Source of the DNA: a virus
Taxonomy: Duplodnaviria; Caudoviricetes
Direction: 5' to 3' (one strand)
Virus record (IMG/VR): IMGVR_UViG_3300029955_000001
Length of the DNA stretch: 64,000 nucleotides
In this document: one piece after another, positions 37,278-45,864 of the stretch
Numbering within the stretch: the first letter of the stretch is position 1
How the letters are laid out: each line of letters opens with the position of its first letter
Program-made: the position numbers and the translations under genes
The notes under the pieces: generated by a model
Databases searched by the model: none
What the model was told of the DNA's origin: nothing
What the model saw: only the letters and a program-made list of their open reading frames with translations

Positions 37278-38141
37278 ATGCCATCAACAACACCTGTTAC
37301 GTATCCGTTTGATCCTACAGGTACGCTCGCGTCAAACCTGATAACTGGTGAACAGCAGATTTTGAAGTTACCAACCTTCGAAAATTTTCATTTCCTAGTT
37401 CCTAACTTAGCACCTTATTTTGCGTCGACATTGCAAGTAAGTATCAAATTACTAGATGGCACAGTACAGCCACTAAACGAAGGTATTGATTATTACTGTA
37501 CAAATCTATTCAAAGCGGCATCGATGGCTTGTGAGAAGCCAATTTATGGTTCTGTTAGTTTTCTTGATCTATCCTTATCCGGTATCGTTACTTTTAACTA
37601 CCAAACAATAGGTGGCAACTGGACACTTAACCAACAACAAATTGCGCAGATTATTAGTAATGTATTGCAGAACCCGCGTGTGACTTATTGGGATCAAGTA
37701 ACAGAATATCCTGCTTTATTTCCACCACTTGCCCACGCGTTTGACTTAGTAGATTTAACAGGAGCGGCAGAGTTATACACAGCGTTAATGGCTATAGAAG
37801 CGGCTATCGCTTCTAAAACATACGATGTAACATTATTGAACCAAGCGATCAATACTGCCAATTCTGCCAATGTAATCGCCAACGAAGCAATAGTCAGAGC
37901 AGATGCTGCGTACGCTGCGTCAAACGCACTAGATCCGACTGCGGCGGCTGCTACTTTGGTTGCGTTGCAAACAGCTATTGCCACAGCAGAGGGCACGTTA
38001 CCCGTTACGTTAACAGCAACAGTCAATAACGCTCTATCAGTAGCTAACGCAGCAATGCTGGCGGTAACTGCTTTAGAAACAAACGGAACAAGTTCGAACG
38101 GTATATCTGACGATGTACTCCTTTTCATGGGGCAAAATTAA
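37278..38141 (+). CDS. Tail-fibre-associated protein (phiKZ gp131-family N-terminus)
   Basis: YPFDPTGTLASNLITGE...APYF...GIDYY...KPIYGSVSF...YQTIGG...WDQV; paralogous to the N-terminus of the 1477 aa fibre. Confidence 0.7.
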   Translation: MPSTTPVTYPFDPTGTLASNLITGEQQILKLPTFENFHFLVPNLAPYFASTLQVSIKLLDGTVQPLNEGIDYYCTNLFKAASMACEKPIYGSVSFLDLSLSGIVTFNYQTIGGNWTLNQQQIAQIISNVLQNPRVTYWDQVTEYPALFPPLAHAFDLVDLTGAAELYTALMAIEAAIASKTYDVTLLNQAINTANSANVIANEAIVRADAAYAASNALDPTAAAATLVALQTAIATAEGTLPVTLTATVNNALSVANAAMLAVTALETNGTSSNGISDDVLLFMGQN

Positions 38142-39785
38142 ATGAACACATCTGTAAAAACAAACCAAAGTGTGTCTGTAAATACAACCGCACTAGGCGT
38201 AGTTGTTCCTCCAGGCCCTACTGTTTTAACAGCGAACATCATAGCAGCTGAAGCTATTAAAGCAGGTGATATCGTTGTAATTGGTAGCGATGGACTTGGA
38301 CATTACGCATTACCACCAGATGCACCAGGCGCTATGTTTAGACCAATTATTCAGCCATCGCCGATCAATGTTGCCAATGGTATTCAAGAAACAATAATAC
38401 TTGCTCCATCTGCCGCTAATACAAGTAATCACATAGGTGAGAAATCTATCCTATTACCAAATGGAAATGTAGTTTTTATTTATACAGCTGGTGGTAATAC
38501 TCAAGCATCTGTTGTTTCCCTAAATGGTAGTTTAGTTGGTAGTCAAATACTAGGGGCAAATGATGGAATAGATTTTAGTGTGGATGCTGTTTTACTTAGC
38601 AATGGAAACATAGCTGCGTTTTTCCATGTAGCGCCATCTTCAGCTTTAGCAATGGCAGTCATTGATAAAAATGCAAACTTTGTTTTACAAACAGCCATTA
38701 TCGAAACAAGTACAGGCGGTGGTGCAATTTCAGCCGATGTAATGATTGACGGTAATCTGATCGTTGCGTATACCGATGGGCAGAATCGTAGCCCAAAAAT
38801 TCAAATTCGCACGGCTTCTGGTGGTGTAGTTACCGCTGGGTTTATTCCAAATACATCCTCTGCTCCAGTTGCTAATAACACATCTGTTTCTGTTAACGCA
38901 CTTAAAGCTGGTGGCTTTAGTTTAGTCTACGCAACAACCGATGGTACGAATGGGCAAGTATATGCTTGTGTTTTCAGCGGCATTGGTTCAGCGCTATCAA
39001 ATAACATTCAAGTAGGGCAACCGCAAACAGGCAGTACTATTGGAGCATTTGTTAAAAGCGTTGCTTTGCCAGATGGTGGATTTGCTGTTGTTGCGTATGG
39101 CGGGAATGGTCCTGGTTTTGCATTGAATATTTTTAACAATAATGCACAACCACAAGGAGCCAACATTGTACTTGATGCTTACGATGGTAACGACTCGGTT
39201 AATCGCGCCGGAATAACTGTTCTTGAAAATGGGAACATTGCGGTTATTTGGCGTGTGTTTGGAAATGCATATGGGGCTGTTTATACCACAGCTGGCTTAC
39301 CTATTGTTCAGAAAACATCTTTCGGTGCTTTTAGTTCTTCTGTTGCAATAACAACTATTCCACGTGGCGGTGCCGCAGTAGCATTACAAGGCGCATCTGA
39401 ATTATTTATTGGTGCGTTAGATAATAATCTATCTGGAAACTTTACAGCAGCACTGCCTGCGGGATTACAGAATTCCATTCCATTAATTCAACCTATTGCA
39501 GCTGCTATCTATACATCAGCTACTGGTCTAATTGCAGGCACTGTTTCTAGTAACGTTACTGTTGGTATATTTGCATCGTATAAAATTGACCAAGCTACTC
39601 CTATTGGAGTGGCAACAACTGCTACTGGCGCTAACCAAGATCTCACAGTGCAAACAGCCGGTGTTGCAACGGTACGACTTAGCTTTGGTCAACCTTATTC
39701 TCTTGACGCAAATAACAACACTCCGCCCGGACAGAAAATGTCAGTTATCGGAAACACTGCTATTCTTAAAGGAATTCAGCAATGA
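38142..39785 (+). CDS. Beta-propeller-like tail/receptor-binding protein
   Basis: 547 aa with about 7 repeats of V/L-x-x-L-x-(N/D)G-x-h-h-h; translationally coupled to both neighbours. Confidence 0.6.
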   Translation: MNTSVKTNQSVSVNTTALGVVVPPGPTVLTANIIAAEAIKAGDIVVIGSDGLGHYALPPDAPGAMFRPIIQPSPINVANGIQETIILAPSAANTSNHIGEKSILLPNGNVVFIYTAGGNTQASVVSLNGSLVGSQILGANDGIDFSVDAVLLSNGNIAAFFHVAPSSALAMAVIDKNANFVLQTAIIETSTGGGAISADVMIDGNLIVAYTDGQNRSPKIQIRTASGGVVTAGFIPNTSSAPVANNTSVSVNALKAGGFSLVYATTDGTNGQVYACVFSGIGSALSNNIQVGQPQTGSTIGAFVKSVALPDGGFAVVAYGGNGPGFALNIFNNNAQPQGANIVLDAYDGNDSVNRAGITVLENGNIAVIWRVFGNAYGAVYTTAGLPIVQKTSFGAFSSSVAITTIPRGGAAVALQGASELFIGALDNNLSGNFTAALPAGLQNSIPLIQPIAAAIYTSATGLIAGTVSSNVTVGIFASYKIDQATPIGVATTATGANQDLTVQTAGVATVRLSFGQPYSLDANNNTPPGQKMSVIGNTAILKGIQQ

Positions 39786-40275: not shown

Positions 40276-43200
40276 ATGTCAACACCACTTGTTCTTAAAT
40301 ATCCAATTGATCCGACTGGAACTAATCCTGCTAATTTAGTACAGGGTGAAGTTCAGACGTTGATCCCAAGACCAATACGTGCGGCAGCAACAGATTACGG
40401 TGCATTTTATTCTGCTTCCTTGATTGTTACCGACACAGCAAACAATACTATTTTAACTTCTGCTCAGTATTACCCAGCAGAAATGTACAAAATTCCAACG
40501 GAGATGTACGGTAAGGAAGTATGTGCAATTATCATTATCACTGATCCAACAGTTAGTAATTCAATATCGTTACAATACCAAGCAGTTGGGGGCATTTTTA
40601 GCACAAGTACTGAAGCTATAGTGCAGATGTTAAATGCAGCTCAATTAGATAACAGACCAATTACTTGGCCTAACATTGAACAGAAACCAACTGAATTTGT
40701 TCCTACTCTGCACACACACAGCACAGATGATTTCTATGGAATGGAATATGTCACGTTTGCACTGGAGCGTGTACGGCAAGCTATTTTACAAGGTGATGAT
40801 GTATCACATGATCAAATTTATGCGTATATTGATAAGAACATCGCTGCTGTATCAGCTGCTCAAGTATCCGCTATTAACGCAGCAATGGCTTTGCATTTAG
40901 CAGCAGCTAATCCGCATCCGCAGTATGTATTGATCGCTGATGAAAATATATATCCTCTTGTAAGAACGCCTACGAATGAAGTCCCTGTCAGTGGGGCGAT
41001 TGGTGTTAACCCCGAGCTAACGTTGACGGGTAATGAATACTATTCGTTATACGGAGTGTCCCAAGGCGCGTCTGAGTTTCGTTTATCGGTTAATGCTGGA
41101 TGTGTTTCTCCTTTTATCTTTGACGCTGTATTAGGGGCTGTAAACACTTATAATTATTCAGGGGTTCTTTCTTCTGAAACTGTTTATTACTGGCAAGTTC
41201 GGTATCAAGATTCAGAAGGCGTGTGGTCTGCTTGGTCTACTGTTACATCGTTTACAAGTGCTGTTATTGGTGTAAATACACCAATAATTAATTCTATAAC
41301 AAATGGTGCGGTAGGTGTAAGCTTAACACCTATTTTAACAAATAGTGCTTTCTCATCAACTGGCATTGTCGATACTCAGACTTCGAGTGTTTTCCAAATA
41401 TGGACTAACAATTCAGCAATCGGTGTTCCTGTTTGGTCTGATACAGTGAACAGTGGTAATTTAAATTCTGTTAGTGTGTCTGGCGGGACGTTGCAAATAA
41501 CAACCACTTATTACGCTAGATCACAACAAGTGGGGGCGTTGCTAGGTGCGTCTAATTGGTCGTCGTGGGTAGCTTTTACAACGGCTTCTACGGGAATTAC
41601 AACGCCGTCGATAATAACCCCCGCAAATGACGCGATAGATGTGTCTATCACGCCAACTATCACAGCTTCGGCCTTTACCCCTTTTGGTGGAACGGATACG
41701 CAAGCTTCGACTAATTGGGAAATATGGACATTGGGAAGTACGTTAACTCCTGTGGTTCGAACGTTTACAGCAAGTGGTACGTTTACGCCACCTAGTGACG
41801 TTATGTCCGTGACTAGTGTTTCTGGATATGGCGCGGCAGCTGTAGCAAATACAACAACACCGGTTACCTATACGTCAGGGGCTGCTTCTACTGCATTTGG
41901 TTTCGCATTCCCAGGCGGTGTAAATGCTACTGCTCCTGTTACTACAACAGAAAATACAGTCGCTGTTATTCCTGGCTATTCGTATCCTATTATAGTGCCA
42001 ACTGGTGGTATTGTTACAATAAACTATTCTACTATTGTTCCTGCGTTAGTATGGTCATCTGAAAATAATACAACTAACCATACATCGATTACACTGCCGG
42101 TAAATAGTATTGTTGCCGATACATTATATCAGATTCGTGTTCAATATACTGGTGTGCTGCACGGTTCATCTGCGTGGTCTGCATGGAGTTATTTTACTGC
42201 TGGTTCACAGGGTGTAAACACTCCGTCTATTACATCGCCAGTTATTGATTCGACAGGTGTGTCTACATCGCCTACATTATTGGCTAGTGCGTTTTCTGTA
42301 TTTGGCGGAGCTGACACGCAAGCATCAGCTAGTTGGGAAATATGGACTGCTGGCACCGCTGTACCGCATACGCAAGCATTTACTGCGAATGGTACTTGGA
42401 CAGCTCCTACTGGTGTGTCTAATTTAACTAGTATTGTTGGCCATGGCGCAGCATCTACGCCAATTAGCGGTATTATTGGTTATGGCCCGTCTTACTATCA
42501 GATAGGCTATAATAGTCTTATTGGTGGTTACAACTATACTTCTACACCAACTATTACACAAACTAGTGGCAGCATTCAAAGCGGCGCTGGTGGTGGAGTT
42601 ACTATACTCCCATTATATTCATATACTTCACCAATCGCGGTTGTGCACGGAACAGTGCCGGATGGAACTTACACCGCGATTGGGACTAACATTAGTGCCA
42701 ATGACGTAACTTCGCCAGTAATGACCGCCGTTGTATCTGGAAATATCGTTACATCAGTAACAGTAACGCCTGGGCTTACAATAGAGGGATCTCAAGAAGA
42801 TGCATTTGCACTGTGGAATATAACTTTTGACATAGGTAATTACTTACAGGGGTTCGCAAGCGCTAATGTAAATACTGGAACTTATTACGCAACTGCAACA
42901 ATTGCTCAAGGCGTAGCAAACAGCGCAACAGCTATTACGTATCAGGTATCTGGGGGCGGAGGCAGTACATTTACGATTAGTTCTACACCTGTACTTACAG
43001 CTGGAAATGCTGAATACGGCACTGTTGGCTATACCGCTGGCGCCAACGCTACTGCTGTCGGTAATACATTTCTTGGTGCCACCGGTTCTGCTGCCCCGGT
43101 TGTCGTTACAGATACAAACGTTGCTGTTGTTCCCGGAACAAGTTATCCTATTGTTGTTCCTACTGGCGCTAGTGTAACAATCAATTGGAGTACAGGTACT

Positions 43201-44709
43201 GCTGGCGCATTAGCATGGTCGGCTGAAGGCGATACGGCTGATAAGACATCTATAACTGTTCCTTCTGGGACATTAAGTAGTTTGTCATCTTACGTAGCTC
43301 GTGTTAAATACACTGGCAATATGTACGGTACTTCAGCATGGTCCACTTGGGATGGGTTTACTACAGGTAACGAAGGTGTTAATACACCTACTATTATATC
43401 GCCAGCAAATAGTTCATCTGTTTCAACGTCAACGTTAACATTGACAGGAAGTACATTTTCTGCATACGGAACAACAGACACACACGCTTCAACTAATTGG
43501 GAGCTATGGTCTGTAGCTACAACACCTGTGTTATTATGGTCATATGAACTTGACACTGTTAATCTAACGTCAATTACAGTACCTAGTAGTTACTTAACTG
43601 ACGGTGTATCGTATCAAGCTCGTATACAGTACACTGGTGCTGCAGCTGGTTCTTCTGAATGGTCTGCGTGGGATGTGTTCACAATGGCTTGGCCTGTCGG
43701 TCCTACAGTTATAGGTGAATCATGGGGTGGCGGTTACTTCATGGGGAATGTTACTGTTGGCGCAGCAAATATGGCAATCATCCTAGCACCAAAAACATCT
43801 GGTGAACATTCTGGAGAAATACTATATACGTCAAATGGTCCTTCGCCATCTGGGGCTTATTCTACTACTGATTCGGTGGCAGATACAGCTGCATGGGCGT
43901 CATTAGGCGCTGGTTCTCCTGCTGCTATATTTGTAAGTGCTTTAACAATTGGCGGGTATAGTGATTGGCAAATACCGTCATCGGCGGTATGGGACCTAGT
44001 TACGGCAAATGCGAATCCAACTACAACTACGTCTGCATTGTATATTACCGGCGGACAAGAAGTAATTGAAAATGCGTGGTATTGGTCTTCGACAGCATAC
44101 GACGACATTAGTACAAACTCTGTTTATGTTAATGCTGTACCTGCTGTAGCAGCACACACGATACCAGCTACTGCTGCTATACCGTCTTACACCACAGGGG
44201 CTGCACCAAGTTATACCATACCAGCGGTTCCTTCAACGCCATCGTCACCAGGCACCCCGATATACCAAACCATATCTGGCGGCACTGGTTTCTTTAGCAT
44301 GTCAGAGACTGGAAACACTTTACCTAGTAATTACGGCCAATGCCCAGCAGGGCAAGCTTTGCTCAGTGAATATGACCAAACATCCACAGATCATGGATGG
44401 GTGTGGTCTTGTCAGATTCAAGATAGGGTTATTACCGGCTATGTTCCAGGAACTGCTGTAGCGCAAATACCAGCAGTTCCGGCTGTATTTGTACCTGCTG
44501 TTCCAGGGACTGTGCATCCTGCTGTACCGGCACAGCCTGCTCAATATATCGCCGCAACACCAGCTGTACCTGGTCATTGGGATACGTCAACTTATACAAC
44601 GTACGACGCCTATGCGTTTAACTATAGTAACTCTACTATGCAGTTACCAAAGCCAACGAACACGGCGTTATACGTGAGAGCAGTTAGGTTAGTTCCTGTT
44701 GGATCGTAA
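40276..44709 (+). CDS. Long tail fibre: gp131-like anchor, FN3-like repeats, C-terminal Lcl/DUF1566-like domain
   Basis: 1477 aa; N-terminal YPIDPTGTNPANLV; about 5 repeats TP-x-I-x-x-P...WEIW...Y-x-x-R-x-x-YTG...WS-x-W-x-x-FT; C-terminal GGYSDWQIPS...WYWSST...YVRAVR. Confidence 0.8.
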   Translation: MSTPLVLKYPIDPTGTNPANLVQGEVQTLIPRPIRAAATDYGAFYSASLIVTDTANNTILTSAQYYPAEMYKIPTEMYGKEVCAIIIITDPTVSNSISLQYQAVGGIFSTSTEAIVQMLNAAQLDNRPITWPNIEQKPTEFVPTLHTHSTDDFYGMEYVTFALERVRQAILQGDDVSHDQIYAYIDKNIAAVSAAQVSAINAAMALHLAAANPHPQYVLIADENIYPLVRTPTNEVPVSGAIGVNPELTLTGNEYYSLYGVSQGASEFRLSVNAGCVSPFIFDAVLGAVNTYNYSGVLSSETVYYWQVRYQDSEGVWSAWSTVTSFTSAVIGVNTPIINSITNGAVGVSLTPILTNSAFSSTGIVDTQTSSVFQIWTNNSAIGVPVWSDTVNSGNLNSVSVSGGTLQITTTYYARSQQVGALLGASNWSSWVAFTTASTGITTPSIITPANDAIDVSITPTITASAFTPFGGTDTQASTNWEIWTLGSTLTPVVRTFTASGTFTPPSDVMSVTSVSGYGAAAVANTTTPVTYTSGAASTAFGFAFPGGVNATAPVTTTENTVAVIPGYSYPIIVPTGGIVTINYSTIVPALVWSSENNTTNHTSITLPVNSIVADTLYQIRVQYTGVLHGSSAWSAWSYFTAGSQGVNTPSITSPVIDSTGVSTSPTLLASAFSVFGGADTQASASWEIWTAGTAVPHTQAFTANGTWTAPTGVSNLTSIVGHGAASTPISGIIGYGPSYYQIGYNSLIGGYNYTSTPTITQTSGSIQSGAGGGVTILPLYSYTSPIAVVHGTVPDGTYTAIGTNISANDVTSPVMTAVVSGNIVTSVTVTPGLTIEGSQEDAFALWNITFDIGNYLQGFASANVNTGTYYATATIAQGVANSATAITYQVSGGGGSTFTISSTPVLTAGNAEYGTVGYTAGANATAVGNTFLGATGSAAPVVVTDTNVAVVPGTSYPIVVPTGASVTINWSTGTAGALAWSAEGDTADKTSITVPSGTLSSLSSYVARVKYTGNMYGTSAWSTWDGFTTGNEGVNTPTIISPANSSSVSTSTLTLTGSTFSAYGTTDTHASTNWELWSVATTPVLLWSYELDTVNLTSITVPSSYLTDGVSYQARIQYTGAAAGSSEWSAWDVFTMAWPVGPTVIGESWGGGYFMGNVTVGAANMAIILAPKTSGEHSGEILYTSNGPSPSGAYSTTDSVADTAAWASLGAGSPAAIFVSALTIGGYSDWQIPSSAVWDLVTANANPTTTTSALYITGGQEVIENAWYWSSTAYDDISTNSVYVNAVPAVAAHTIPATAAIPSYTTGAAPSYTIPAVPSTPSSPGTPIYQTISGGTGFFSMSETGNTLPSNYGQCPAGQALLSEYDQTSTDHGWVWSCQIQDRVITGYVPGTAVAQIPAVPAVFVPAVPGTVHPAVPAQPAQYIAATPAVPGHWDTSTYTTYDAYAFNYSNSTMQLPKPTNTALYVRAVRLVPVGS

Positions 44710-44797
44710 TTTACAAGCCATATTGTGAAGATTGACGTGAGAATTAAAAACACTCACGTCATTTCTAATAACTCTCTATCTCTCTAGGTAAATAAAA

Positions 44798-45223
44798 ATG
44801 ACACAACCAACGCCAATCGTAGTAAATGGTCCTTCTGTAAAAGGATCTTTAGGCATGTCAAGTGTAAGCGAAAAATGTGCTTTACCTGATGGTGTATATG
44901 TTCCTCTTTTTACTGCTCCATCAGGATGTGCTGATGTAGTTGTAAACTATCGTATTGTCTCAAATGACATCACTACTGATACTACTGTTCGTGCTGCTAT
45001 TTGCAATTCTGGTTACGTAGCGGGCACTGCTCCTAGTCCAGCAGATTGGATTCAACCAGGTAATTTTAAGATTGGGCCAAGTGGCGTTACAGTAGGTATT
45101 ATGGAAGATACATCTGTAGTTATGGGTCCTGGTGAAGTGCTTGTTGTATGGGCGTCTAACGGAACAAGTAGTGCGTTTATTGCCACTGCTAGAGTACATG
45201 GCTTCCAAAAAGCGACTTCTTAA
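44798..45223 (+). CDS. Small beta-rich virion-associated protein
   Basis: 141 aa in the tail-fibre operon. Confidence 0.6.
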   Translation: MTQPTPIVVNGPSVKGSLGMSSVSEKCALPDGVYVPLFTAPSGCADVVVNYRIVSNDITTDTTVRAAICNSGYVAGTAPSPADWIQPGNFKIGPSGVTVGIMEDTSVVMGPGEVLVVWASNGTSSAFIATARVHGFQKATS

Positions 45224-45240
45224 TTTAGAAAGGACTTAGC

Positions 45241-45864
45241 ATGTCACAGTCTTATGGTAACGCGCGTTACGGTCAACAGGCTACTGCCATCGCGGTAACA
45301 GCTGCTGCGACGGTAGCCGCTAACGCAATGACTTTAGCAAATTCATTTTCTTCTCAATTAACTAATGTCGAAGCTAGTCTAGCGGCAGCTATCGTAACTA
45401 TCAATAACACAGGAACGATGGTAGCAGAAGAAACTAGTAGAGCAGAATCAGTAGAAACAATACTGCAACAGGATATAAATAACATTGTACTAAGTTCTGG
45501 CGGAATCGTTACATTACCATACACTATTCCATTCTCATGTTTTGATCCAATCATGGTAACATCGATATTAGATGGTACAATTGTAACTGAACAAGTTACA
45601 TTACCAGTGAACTTAACAGGATCGTTTGGTAAGTGCGGCATTGCTCCAGTGACTTCTAATTCTCAATTCGATATATTGATAAATGGAACCACTGTTGGCG
45701 AAGTTCTATTTAGCCCCGGCTCAACAAACGCTACATTTACTTTTGCAGCACAACAAGTATTAAATCCTGGAGATTTAATTATTCTTCAAGTGAGTAGCGG
45801 TGTATTTGATACCAGTCTAGAAAATGTGTTTATAACATTAACTGGTACTTATACCTCAGCTTAA
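45241..45864 (+). CDS. Coiled-coil plus beta-sandwich virion-associated protein
   Basis: 207 aa in the tail-fibre operon. Confidence 0.6.
   Translation: MSQSYGNARYGQQATAIAVTAAATVAANAMTLANSFSSQLTNVEASLAAAIVTINNTGTMVAEETSRAESVETILQQDINNIVLSSGGIVTLPYTIPFSCFDPIMVTSILDGTIVTEQVTLPVNLTGSFGKCGIAPVTSNSQFDILINGTTVGEVLFSPGSTNATFTFAAQQVLNPGDLIILQVSSGVFDTSLENVFITLTGTYTSA

What the first reader, a model, noticed from the sequence alone, without database searches (positions are those of the whole stretch)
43699..44709. Lcl/DUF1566 tip domain with a ~170 aa stalk-and-knob insertion at its variable site
Seen: between WYWSST and AYAF...YVRAVR, which are normally close together, lie two Pro/Ala/Val runs (AVPAVAAHTIPATAAIP... 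and ...IPAVPAVFVPAVPGTVHPAVPAQP...) flanking a small core with two Cys (GQCPAG...WVWSCQIQ). Established: this C-type-lectin-like fold is a common DGR target and its ligand site lies in this C-terminal part. Inference: the two runs pair into an extended stalk presenting a disulfide knob, diversifying binding by insertion instead of by DGR mutagenesis.
Basis: partly seen in the sequence, partly recalled or inferred. Interest (0 to 1): 0.7.

Follow-up and report, generated by a model that had tools for sequence, protein, structure and literature searches.

The report
Phage fibre tip with stalk-and-knob
The last 336 residues of a giant peat phage's long fibre form a lectin-like tip from which a two-limbed stalk carries a small two-cysteine knob, a design shared by a family of uncultured phage fibres; this phage alone lengthens both limbs by about 40 proline/alanine/valine residues.

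Summary
In the 1477-aa fibre gene (40276-44709), 171 residues lie between WYWSST and AYAF. They comprise two uncharged Pro/Ala/Val runs flanking a 64-aa core with two Cys.

The flanks fold as an Lcl C-terminal/DUF1566 C-type-lectin-like domain (AF2 pLDDT above 90; best solved match Legionella Lcl-CTD 8q4e, Z 12.9).

At least 34 other protein clusters carry the same insert (PIY motif, two near-invariant Cys, V-x-GY-x-PG motif) at this hairpin. Most of those checked are fibres with the same N-terminal anchor. Canonical relatives have only about 8-15 residues there.

Across that subfamily the two limbs joining knob to core keep coupled lengths (16/14, 14/12, 23/21), while the knob loops vary freely. 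That argues the limbs pair.

This phage follows the rule at an extreme, 55/55. Each limb gained a run of about 40 aa that no relative has.

AF2 models the knob moderately (pLDDT 70-88) and the runs poorly (47-60). Pairing of the runs is therefore inferred, not shown.

No RT or template repeat lies in the 165-kb record. Independent peat and permafrost metagenomes hold the identical sequence.

Verdict: a new variant of a known kind, of moderate interest.

The parts
40276..44709 (+). Whole fibre gene, 1477 aa (P0001). It has an N-terminal virion-attachment domain, FN3/Ig-like repeats with nested modules, and a C-terminal tip.
   Evidence: ORF list and translation. phrog_2163 'virion structural protein' on residues 4-214, E 8e-61. 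Ig_Rha78A_N repeats. The syntenic ortholog P0046 is 56% identical over the first 500 aa.
43699..44076 (+). N-terminal part of the Lcl_C-like core (P0002 1-126), with the invariant D89-W90-x-x-P93 motif.
   Evidence: AF2 pLDDT 86-98. Lcl_C profile positions 28-96 match P0002 76-145. Invariant columns in alignment A1. 8q4e Z 12.9.
44077..44130 (+). Ascending core strand and ribbon base (P0002 127-144, WYWSSTAYDDISTNSVYV).
   Evidence: Predicted strand E127-144. Y128, W129 and S131 are nearly invariant or invariant.
44131..44253 (+). Ascending Pro/Ala/Val run (P0002 145-185). About 39 residues have no counterpart in any relative.
   Evidence: Alignments A1 and A2: relatives have 1 residue in these 39 columns, P0046 has 6. 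51% P+A+V and no charged residue. pLDDT 47-64, no regular secondary structure.
44254..44445 (+). Knob (P0002 186-249): TPIY strand, loop with Cys215, short strand, then the W-x-W-S-Cys238 strand ending in VITGYVPG.
   Evidence: Strands E186-202, E221-227 and E233-249; pLDDT 70-78 in the whole-domain model and 68-88 when folded alone. P of PIY is invariant; both Cys and Y of GY are at least 90% conserved in 26 sequences. No solved fold matches, best Z 3.8.
44446..44574 (+). Descending Pro/Ala/Val run (P0002 250-292). About 41 residues have no counterpart in any relative.
   Evidence: Alignments A1 and A2: relatives have 1-3 residues in these 41 columns, P0046 has 6. 67% P+A+V, no charged residue, Pro mostly 3 apart. 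pLDDT 50-60.
44575..44622 (+). Descending ribbon base and core strand (P0002 293-308, HWDTSTYTTYDAYAFN).
   Evidence: Predicted strand E293-308. In this fold it is the partner of E127-144.
44623..44709 (+). C-terminal core strands with YVRAVRLV (R327 and R330 invariant) and the stop codon.
   Evidence: pLDDT 87-97. Invariant R327 and R330. The same VRAVR motif ends Lcl-CTD.

Best explanation
This is the distal, probably receptor-binding, tip of a long fibre of an uncultured phiKZ-like jumbo phage from peat. The tip is an Lcl C-terminal/DUF1566 C-type-lectin-like domain. Its hairpin after the YWSS strand has been drawn out into a two-limbed stalk. The stalk carries a beta-knob of about 65 aa, probably stapled by one disulfide (Cys215-Cys238).

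The stalk-plus-knob is a module of a whole subfamily of phage fibre tips. In that subfamily the limbs are a short paired ribbon of fixed, coupled length, and the knob loops are the hypervariable part. The knob loops are the likely specificity surface.

In this phage each limb has additionally acquired an uncharged Pro/Ala/Val run of about 40 aa at the same height of the ribbon. I infer that the two runs lie side by side as an extended, largely polyproline-II-like stalk. If fully extended this would push the knob up to roughly 12 nm further from the lectin-like core, for example to reach a receptor under a capsule, S-layer or slime.

Binding variety in this lineage comes from swapping and resizing of the knob and stalk, not from a diversity-generating retroelement.

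Shown: the fold of the flanks, the family-wide insert, coupled limb lengths, uniqueness of the runs, and absence of an RT or template repeat in the record. Inferred: pairing and extension of the runs, the disulfide, receptor binding by the knob, and the trimeric state.
For: Fold of the flanks:
- AF2 core pLDDT is above 90.
- The best of 48,161 solved chains is Lcl-CTD 8q4e: Z 12.9, rmsd 3.1, 120 of 131 residues aligned, spanning model residues 1-332. Next come Bd2740 CTD, C-type lectin-like domains, intimin/invasin, TvpA and Mtd.
- ESM Atlas Lcl_C clusters align 146-169 residues at rmsd 1.3-2.4.
- 32 of 46 aligned relatives hit Pfam Lcl_C, best E 4e-16.

Family-wide insert:
- 25 of the top 150 representatives and 9 more from a second search carry the PIY, Cys, Cys and V-x-GY-x-PG insert. 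Most other related domain copies have the short hairpin.
- The full-length carriers that were scanned share the phrog_2163 fibre N-terminus.

Coupled limbs:
- Limb-length pairs are 16/14 in 23 sequences, 14/12 in 6, 17/14 in 2, 16/13 in 2, 23/21 in 1 (the positional ortholog P0046) and 55/55 here.
- Knob segments vary 19-53, 21-54 and 9-25 residues.
- Core identity is 0.42 against 0.22 for the Cys-Cys loop.

The runs:
- They are absent from every relative.
- They have no charged residue in 84 positions and Pro mostly at spacing 3.
- One beta-bridge continues the ribbon into the runs, residue 147 with 290.

Knob: it folds with pLDDT 68-88 even without the core.

Reality and stability: identical sequence in independent metagenomes, with no indels.

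No DGR: no RVT_1 hit and no second copy of the 3' 660 bp in the 165-kb record.

Context: the gene ends a fibre operon just before the holin and SLT endolysin genes.

Literature: Lcl-CTD and Bd2740 are trimeric fibre tips of this fold (PMC11162425, PMC10769870).
Against: - AF2 gives the two runs pLDDT 47-60 and no regular secondary structure. No relative covers those columns, so the model is blind there either way.
- Model coordinates and PAE were not available, so pairing could not be read from the model.
- Odd Pro spacings (3, 5) rule out a regular two-stranded beta ribbon. Long paired polyproline-II rods without Gly have little precedent.
- The length-coupling rule rests on few independent events: about three matched indels. 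The 14/12 sequences may be one clade.
- The two Cys are absent in P0114, and one is missing in P0059, so the staple is not obligatory.
- Phage fibres fold in the reducing cytoplasm.
- In the ortholog P0046 a GP38 adhesin domain follows this domain. There the knob domain is not the most distal element.
- No binding data exist and the host is unknown.
Confidence: 0.55

Rival explanations
1. The two Pro/Ala/Val runs are unpaired, flexible or elastic tethers. The knob then dangles on a double leash and samples a large volume (fly-casting) rather than sitting on a defined stalk.
For: pLDDT is 47-60 and there is no secondary structure in both AF2 runs. The composition is low-complexity Pro/Ala/Val, as in known extended linkers (my own knowledge of E2 lipoyl linkers and elastin-like segments). 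No homolog constrains the runs.
Against: Equal added lengths (+39 and +41) at matching heights of a ribbon whose limb lengths are otherwise strictly coupled. There is a complete lack of charged residues and few polar ones, with many Val/Ile/Phe; that is unusual for solvent-exposed free linkers. A beta-bridge at 147/290 extends the ribbon into the runs.
Confidence: 0.27
2. The runs are selectively neutral low-complexity expansions (replication slippage in a tolerant surface hairpin) with no role in reach or binding.
For: Short shared DNA words between the limbs, such as ATACCAGCRGTTCC and TGTACCTGCTGT. Only this lineage has the runs.
Against: No tandem repeat was detected. DNA similarity between the limbs is not above codon-shuffled controls (p about 0.11). 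Two independent neutral expansions would not be expected to match in length. There is no length polymorphism in four independent metagenomes.
Confidence: 0.08
3. The ribbon-and-knob is not the receptor contact. Instead it is a docking or assembly element for a separate adhesin or chaperone, as gp37 tips hold gp38 in T2-type phages.
For: In the syntenic ortholog P0046 a GP38 domain (PF05268, E 2e-11) follows the knob-bearing domain. In locus L005 a stand-alone knob-bearing Lcl_C gene is followed by a GP38-family gene. Two small genes of unknown function follow the fibre gene here (44798-45864).
Against: No GP38 match in this 165-kb record, although the control genomes were silent too. The knob loops are hypervariable in length and sequence, as expected of a specificity surface rather than a conserved docking site.
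Confidence: 0.1
4. The region is a DGR variable region, or a remnant of one, whose RT lies in the unsequenced part of the genome.
For: DUF1566 motifs overlap variable regions in 14% of surveyed DGRs (PMC5758913). The record is only about 58% complete.
Against: No RVT_1 match and no template-like second copy in 165 kb. DGR cassettes normally lie next to their target. Contigs from four independent runs show two single-base differences, neither at an adenine, and no hypervariable patch.
Confidence: 0.02

Closest known systems
Legionella pneumophila Lcl C-terminal domain (PDB 8q4e; Pfam PF07603 Lcl_C / DUF1566; PMC11162425)
   Same: Same fold: Z 12.9, 120 of 131 residues aligned. Same motifs: DW-x-[ILV]-P, W-S-S and a terminal VRAVR. 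It sits at the end of a fibre (collagen stalk in Lcl, FN3-like shaft here). Lcl residues S370-N373, in the hairpin right after W-S-S, contact chondroitin sulphate; that is the site of the insert here.
   Different: Lcl has 2-3 residues in that hairpin, whereas this protein has 171. Pfam's Lcl_C model scores only 22 bits (cut-off 34.9), because the insert splits the domain. The trimer state was not established here. Lcl is a bacterial adhesin, not a virion protein.
Knob-bearing Lcl_C tips of uncultured jumbo-phage fibres (P0003, P0013, P0046, P0142 and about 30 others; no name or paper found)
   Same: Same insert at the same hairpin: PIY motif, two Cys and V-x-GY-x-PG. Where tested, the same phrog_2163 N-terminal anchor (10 scanned; two short proteins lack it). 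P0046 lies in the same gene order before the holin and SLT genes.
   Different: Their limbs are 14-23 and 12-21 residues; here both are 55. None has the Pro/Ala/Val runs. Tip identity is only 30-38%.
DGR variable proteins with a C-type-lectin fold (Bordetella phage Mtd 1yu0, Treponema TvpA 2y3c, Legionella LdtA class 'd' DUF1566 targets; PMC5758913)
   Same: Same fold class (Z 6.7-6.9). Variation is concentrated in the C-terminal part of the fold. Mtd is a trimeric phage fibre tip.
   Different: No RT, no template repeat and no adenine-directed variation were found here. Variation here is by insertion and length change of a protruding module, not by point substitutions on a flat face.
Bovine ultralong CDR H3 'stalk and knob' (PMC5994613, PMC8602281)
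   Same: Works alike in outline. A two-stranded stalk drawn from a binding loop of a stable scaffold presents a small disulfide-stapled mini-domain. Stalk length matters, and the knob carries the diversity.
   Different: Unrelated scaffold (Ig versus C-type-lectin-like). Cow knobs have several disulfides and 40-70 residues in total. Here there is one putative disulfide, and the stalk extension is Pro/Ala/Val-rich rather than a regular beta ribbon. This is an analogy only.
Bdellovibrio bacteriovorus MAT fibre Bd2740 C-terminal domain (PDB 8oks; PMC10769870)
   Same: A trimeric fibre ending in a calcium-independent C-type-lectin-like tip, with its ligand pockets facing away from the fibre (Z 10.2).
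   Different: No hairpin insertion. It is a bacterial predator fibre, not a phage fibre.

Membership tests
Pfam PF07603 Lcl_C (DUF1566) | Match to the family HMM above the gathering score (34.9 bits) | tested here: not met
   22.0 bits, E 2e-4. Only profile positions 28-96 match, on P0002 76-145; the 171-aa insert cuts off the last strands. I therefore describe it as an insert-bearing divergent relative of the family, not as a Pfam-threshold member.
Pfam PF07603 Lcl_C (DUF1566) | Sequence homology to proteins that themselves pass the family model | tested here: met
   phmmer gives 704 hits, 136 at E <= 1e-10. 32 of 46 aligned relatives match Lcl_C, best E 4e-16. Many hits carry precomputed PF07603.
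Pfam PF07603 Lcl_C (DUF1566) | Fold of Lcl-CTD (C-type-lectin-like) formed by both flanks together | tested here: met
   8q4e_A: Z 12.9, rmsd 3.1, 120 of 131 aligned over model 1-332. Atlas Lcl_C clusters give TM 0.79-0.85 normalised by the match.
Pfam PF07603 Lcl_C (DUF1566) | Conserved motifs D-W-x-[ILV]-P, Y-W-[ST]-S and C-terminal R-x-[VI]-R | tested here: met
   D89, W90, P93, S131, R327 and R330 are invariant in 46 sequences. The same motifs align to Lcl.
Trimeric fibre-tip C-type-lectin-like domains (Lcl-CTD, Bd2740, Mtd) | Homotrimer | tested here: inconclusive
   The three-copy prediction gave no verdict. Trimerisation is assumed only from the relatives' published structures.
DGR variable protein | Reverse transcriptase encoded nearby | tested here: not met
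   No RVT_1 match in the 165-kb record, while the controls rang. The record is about 58% complete.
DGR variable protein | Template repeat: a second, adenine-mismatched copy of the 3' end of the gene | tested here: not met
   A search with 44050-44709 against the record finds only itself and a 14-nt chance word.
DGR variable protein | Adenine-directed hypervariation in populations | tested here: inconclusive
   Contigs of four runs show only 43761 C>G and 44474 C>A, in one low-depth run. Contigs drop rare variants.
Calcium-dependent C-type lectin CRD | EPN/QPD and WND calcium/sugar motifs, and the conserved CRD disulfides | tested here: not met
   Direct reading of P0002: no EPN, QPD or WND, and the only Cys are the two in the knob. 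The matches to CRDs are fold-level only (Z 6-8).
Stalk-and-knob display (bovine ultralong CDR H3 type), functional analogy only | Paired ascending and descending stalk strands | tested here: inconclusive
   Coupled limb lengths across 35 sequences support pairing. The AF2 ribbon base E127-144 with E293-308 and the bridge 147/290 agree. The 40-aa runs themselves are modelled without confidence.
Stalk-and-knob display (bovine ultralong CDR H3 type), functional analogy only | Disulfide-stapled knob | not testable with these tools
   The two Cys are at least 90% conserved, but no coordinates or chemistry were available.

The most novel reading that the evidence does not exclude
Phage fibres have independently evolved a length-tunable 'stalk-and-knob' display like that of cow ultralong antibodies. 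[quoted passage not shown] In this phage the stalk is extended by a previously undescribed structural element: two antiparallel, uncharged Pro/Ala/Val rods of about 40 residues that pair, or bundle six-fold in the trimer, without glycine. That would make a probe of about 12 nm able to reach receptors beneath a capsule or S-layer.
Probability: 0.25. Interest if true: 0.7.

Novelty: new variant of a known kind. Interest (0 to 1): 0.5.

Why it matters
Receptor-binding tips decide phage host range. The C-type-lectin fold is the classic scaffold for massive variation by retroelements.

Here the same hairpin is used in a different way. A whole, unnamed subfamily of jumbo-phage fibres carries a protruding ribbon and knob whose loops vary freely while the two limbs keep register. 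One member stretches the limbs to 55/55 residues.

If the stalk reading holds, it gives a natural, modular mini-binder on a spacer of adjustable length. That is of interest for engineering phage host range in laboratory systems and for protein display. It would also help in understanding how phages reach receptors buried under surface layers.

The coupled-length rule can be tested on sequence data alone.

Tried and rejected
- Foldseek of the whole model against the PDB gave nothing significant. The top rows were long-hairpin pore formers with rmsd above 25 Å. VIA-align was needed to find Lcl-CTD.
- A profile of A1 against PDB sequences gave only a sub-threshold hit to 8q4e (E 0.065).
- The knob folded alone found no solved fold, best Z 3.8. 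This does not show that the fold is new.
- The three-copy complex prediction of residues 5-336 returned 'no answer'. It is not used as evidence either way.
- Cultured-phage search: only Pseudomonas phage Medea1 DUF1566 proteins matched, and only the first 100 residues.
- The word-indexed search with the insert profile was crowded out and returned 4 proteins.
- P0004, the only 100% hit, is a substring of this same protein and not an independent relative.
- Test of whether one limb is a copy of the other: DNA similarity is not above codon-shuffled controls (p about 0.11), protein similarity is marginal (p about 0.02), and there is no tandem repeat. The origin of the runs is left open.
- No GP38 match in this record, but the control genomes were silent too, so absence is not shown.
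- Parts of the stretch lacked contig cover in runs X11 and X13. That says nothing about absence.
Full report
**What is there.** The window lies in a 165-kb IMG/VR virus record, linear and about 58% complete. Earlier notes of this scan describe it as a phiKZ-like jumbo phage from peat. ORF 40276-44709 (+) encodes a 1477-aa protein, P0001. Its first 214 residues match phrog_2163 'virion structural protein', E 8e-61. Related PHROGs hit by relatives that share this N-terminus are annotated tail or tail-fibre proteins. The middle holds FN3/Ig-like repeats. The gene is followed by two small ORFs, a holin and an SLT endolysin. The finding concerns the last 336 residues, P0002 (43699-44706).

**Observation check.** All quoted strings are present at the stated places.
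- WYWSST is P0002 127-132, AYAF is 304-307 and YVRAVR is 325-330, so 171 residues lie between WYWSST and AYAF.
- Run 1 (145-185) is 51% Pro+Ala+Val. Run 2 (250-292) is 67%. Neither has a single charged residue, and Pro is mostly three residues apart in run 2. The protein as a whole is 27% P+A+V.
- Between the runs lie 64 residues holding two of the protein's four Cys, Cys215 and Cys238.
- The stretch is real. Contigs of independent peat and permafrost metagenomes (X4: 43961-45251; X8: 43090-44410 and 44397-45171) cover it with no differences and no indels.

**The flanks form an Lcl-type fold.**
- Pfam's Lcl_C model matches only P0002 76-145 (22 bits, below the 34.9 cut-off), because the insert removes the last strands from reach.
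- An exhaustive phmmer search of 1.84 billion representatives gave 704 hits, 136 at E <= 1e-10. Of 46 aligned relatives, 32 hit Lcl_C, best E 4e-16.
- D89, W90, P93, S131, R327 and R330 are invariant.
- AF2 with this alignment gives pLDDT 86-98 for residues 1-140 and 87-97 for 300-336.
- Against 48,161 solved chains the best match is the Legionella Lcl C-terminal domain 8q4e (Z 12.9, rmsd 3.1, 120 of 131 residues, model range 1-332). It is followed by a Bacteroides fimbrial protein, the Bdellovibrio fibre tip Bd2740, many C-type lectin-like domains, intimin/invasin, TvpA and Mtd.
- ESM Atlas clusters annotated Lcl_C, many of them viral, align 146-169 residues at rmsd 1.3-2.4. BFVD gives DUF1566 phage proteins.
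DUF1566-type motifs overlap the variable region in 14% of surveyed DGRs (PMC5758913). In Lcl the hairpin right after W-S-S (S370-N373) contacts chondroitin sulphate, and Lcl-CTD is a trimer (PMC11162425).

**The knob is a subfamily trait, not an invention of this protein.**
- Among the top 150 representatives, most related domain copies have 20-60 residues between YWSS and RxVR. About 25 have 100-190.
- Aligned, those 25 share with the query a D/T-P-I-Y motif, two Cys and a V-(I/V)-G-Y-(T)-P-G motif. In A2 the P and Y of PIY are invariant, and both Cys and the Y of GY are at least 90% conserved.
- A further search added nine more carriers.
- Ten carriers were scanned against PHROGs. The eight longer ones begin with the same phrog_2163 anchor; two short proteins hit only the tip family.
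- P0046 is the positional ortholog. It has the same gene order, up to the holin (one contig also shows the SLT), and is 56% identical over the first 500 residues.
- No paper in the held library describes this insert.

**What is specific to this phage.** In both alignments the query has 39 and 41 residues in columns where the other carriers have 1 and 1-3 residues, and P0046 has 6 and 6. The novelty is therefore two runs of about 40 aa, one on each limb. No other cluster among 1.84 billion representatives aligns over them. The only 100% hit, P0004, is a substring of this same protein.

**Do the limbs pair?** I counted residues between near-invariant anchors: ascending limb from the S of YWSS to the P of PIY, descending limb from the Y of GY to the A of AY.

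| Ascending / descending limb | Sequences |
|---|---|
| 16/14 | 23 |
| 14/12 | 6 |
| 17/14 | 2 |
| 16/13 | 2 |
| 23/21 (P0046) | 1 |
| 55/55 (query) | 1 |

- These counts come from an independent L-INS-i realignment of 35 sequences.
- Without the query, the correlation is r = 0.99 and Spearman 0.88.
- In the same sequences the knob segments vary widely: PIY to Cys1 19-53, Cys1 to Cys2 21-54, Cys2 to GY 9-25.
- The Cys-Cys loop is the least conserved part, with mean pairwise identity 0.22 against 0.42 for the core.
- Coupled limb lengths with free knob loops are what a register-keeping two-stranded stalk carrying a variable head would give. The query obeys the rule, with +39 and +41 inserted at matching heights.
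- Caveat: this amounts to about three independent matched events, and the 14/12 group may be one clade.

**What the models say.**
- In the whole-domain model, long strands E127-144 and E293-308 form the ribbon base, and a further bridge joins residues 147 and 290.
- The knob has strands E186-202, E221-227 and E233-249 at pLDDT 70-78. The two runs have pLDDT 47-60 and no regular structure.
- Folded without the core, the knob keeps the same strands at pLDDT 68-88 and the runs stay unconfident.
The pairing of the runs is also not demonstrated.
- I had no access to coordinates or PAE, and no homolog informs those columns.
- The Pro spacings include many odd values, which excludes a regular beta ribbon. 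Period-3 Pro fits polyproline-II. About 40 residues at roughly 3.1 Å each would add up to about 12 nm (my inference).
- The absence of charge and the abundance of Val/Ile/Phe argue that the runs pack against something, either each other or the equivalent runs of other subunits in a trimer (inference).
- The knob matches no solved fold (best Z 3.8). That shows little for so small a domain.

**No sign of a DGR.** The record holds no RVT_1 match, while control genomes rang. It holds no second copy of 44050-44709. Four independent runs show only two single-base differences, in one low-depth run: 43761 C>G and 44474 C>A. By my reading of the frame, the latter would change Ala259 of P0002 to Glu. 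There were no indels. The missing 40% of the genome remains unsearched.

**Mechanism proposed.** The fibre's C-terminal Lcl-like domain is the distal tip. By analogy with Lcl, Bd2740 and Mtd it is probably trimeric (PMC11162425, PMC10769870). From the hairpin that carries ligand contacts in Lcl, a paired stalk projects a small beta-knob. The knob's hypervariable loops, probably held by a Cys215-Cys238 bridge formed after lysis, contact the host receptor. In this phage the stalk is lengthened about 3.5-fold by two Pro/Ala/Val runs, giving a longer reach. Diversity in the lineage arises by exchange and resizing of knob and stalk.

**Rivals.**
- The runs are unpaired flexible tethers (0.27).
- The runs are neutral slippage products (0.08). 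No tandem repeat was found, and the limbs are no more alike in DNA than codon-shuffled controls.
- The module docks a separate adhesin (0.10). This is prompted by the GP38 domain after the knob domain in P0046 and by a GP38-family gene next to a stand-alone knob gene in L005.
- It is a DGR target with a distant RT (0.02).

**Verdict.** This is an insert-bearing relative of the Lcl_C/DUF1566 family. It belongs to an undescribed knob-bearing subfamily of jumbo-phage fibre tips and is its most extreme member. It is a new variant of a known kind, with interest 0.5.

Noticed in passing
L004:2085-6089 (P0046) and L005:2382-4069: The syntenic ortholog of this fibre carries a GP38 adhesin domain (PF05268) after its knob-bearing Lcl domain. 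In another contig a stand-alone knob-bearing Lcl_C gene is followed directly by a GP38-family gene. This suggests a recurrent partnership of the two modules.
   Followed up: partly
window 37278-39785: A 287-aa ORF with the same phrog_2163 N-terminal anchor as the 1477-aa fibre (E 3e-46) is followed without a gap by a 547-aa ORF of no known family. This may be a second fibre, split into two genes or read through.
   Followed up: no
proteins P0003+P0142, P0035+P0156+P0164, P0005+P0007, P0006+P0131: Knob-bearing fibre proteins share identical longest-contig lengths in groups of two or three. Related jumbo phages therefore probably carry several paralogous knob fibres each. This record has only one Lcl_C match.
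   Followed up: no
window 44474 (and 43761): One low-depth contig of run X11 reads C>A at 44474. By my reading of the frame this would change Ala259 to Glu inside the otherwise charge-free descending run. It may be a sequencing error.
   Followed up: no
window 44798-45864: Two small ORFs (141 and 207 aa) lie between the fibre gene and the holin. Neither has a Pfam match, and only a weak match to a PHROG of unknown function was found for the second. ORFs of similar size (137 and 157 aa) sit in the same place after the ortholog P0046. They are candidate fibre chaperones or accessory adhesins.
   Followed up: partly
P0003 (1355 aa, 223-kb contig): This relative strings four Lcl-like domains in one fibre. 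Some have large insertions at a different site, between DW-x-IP and YWSS, so more than one loop of this fold tolerates big inserts.
   Followed up: no
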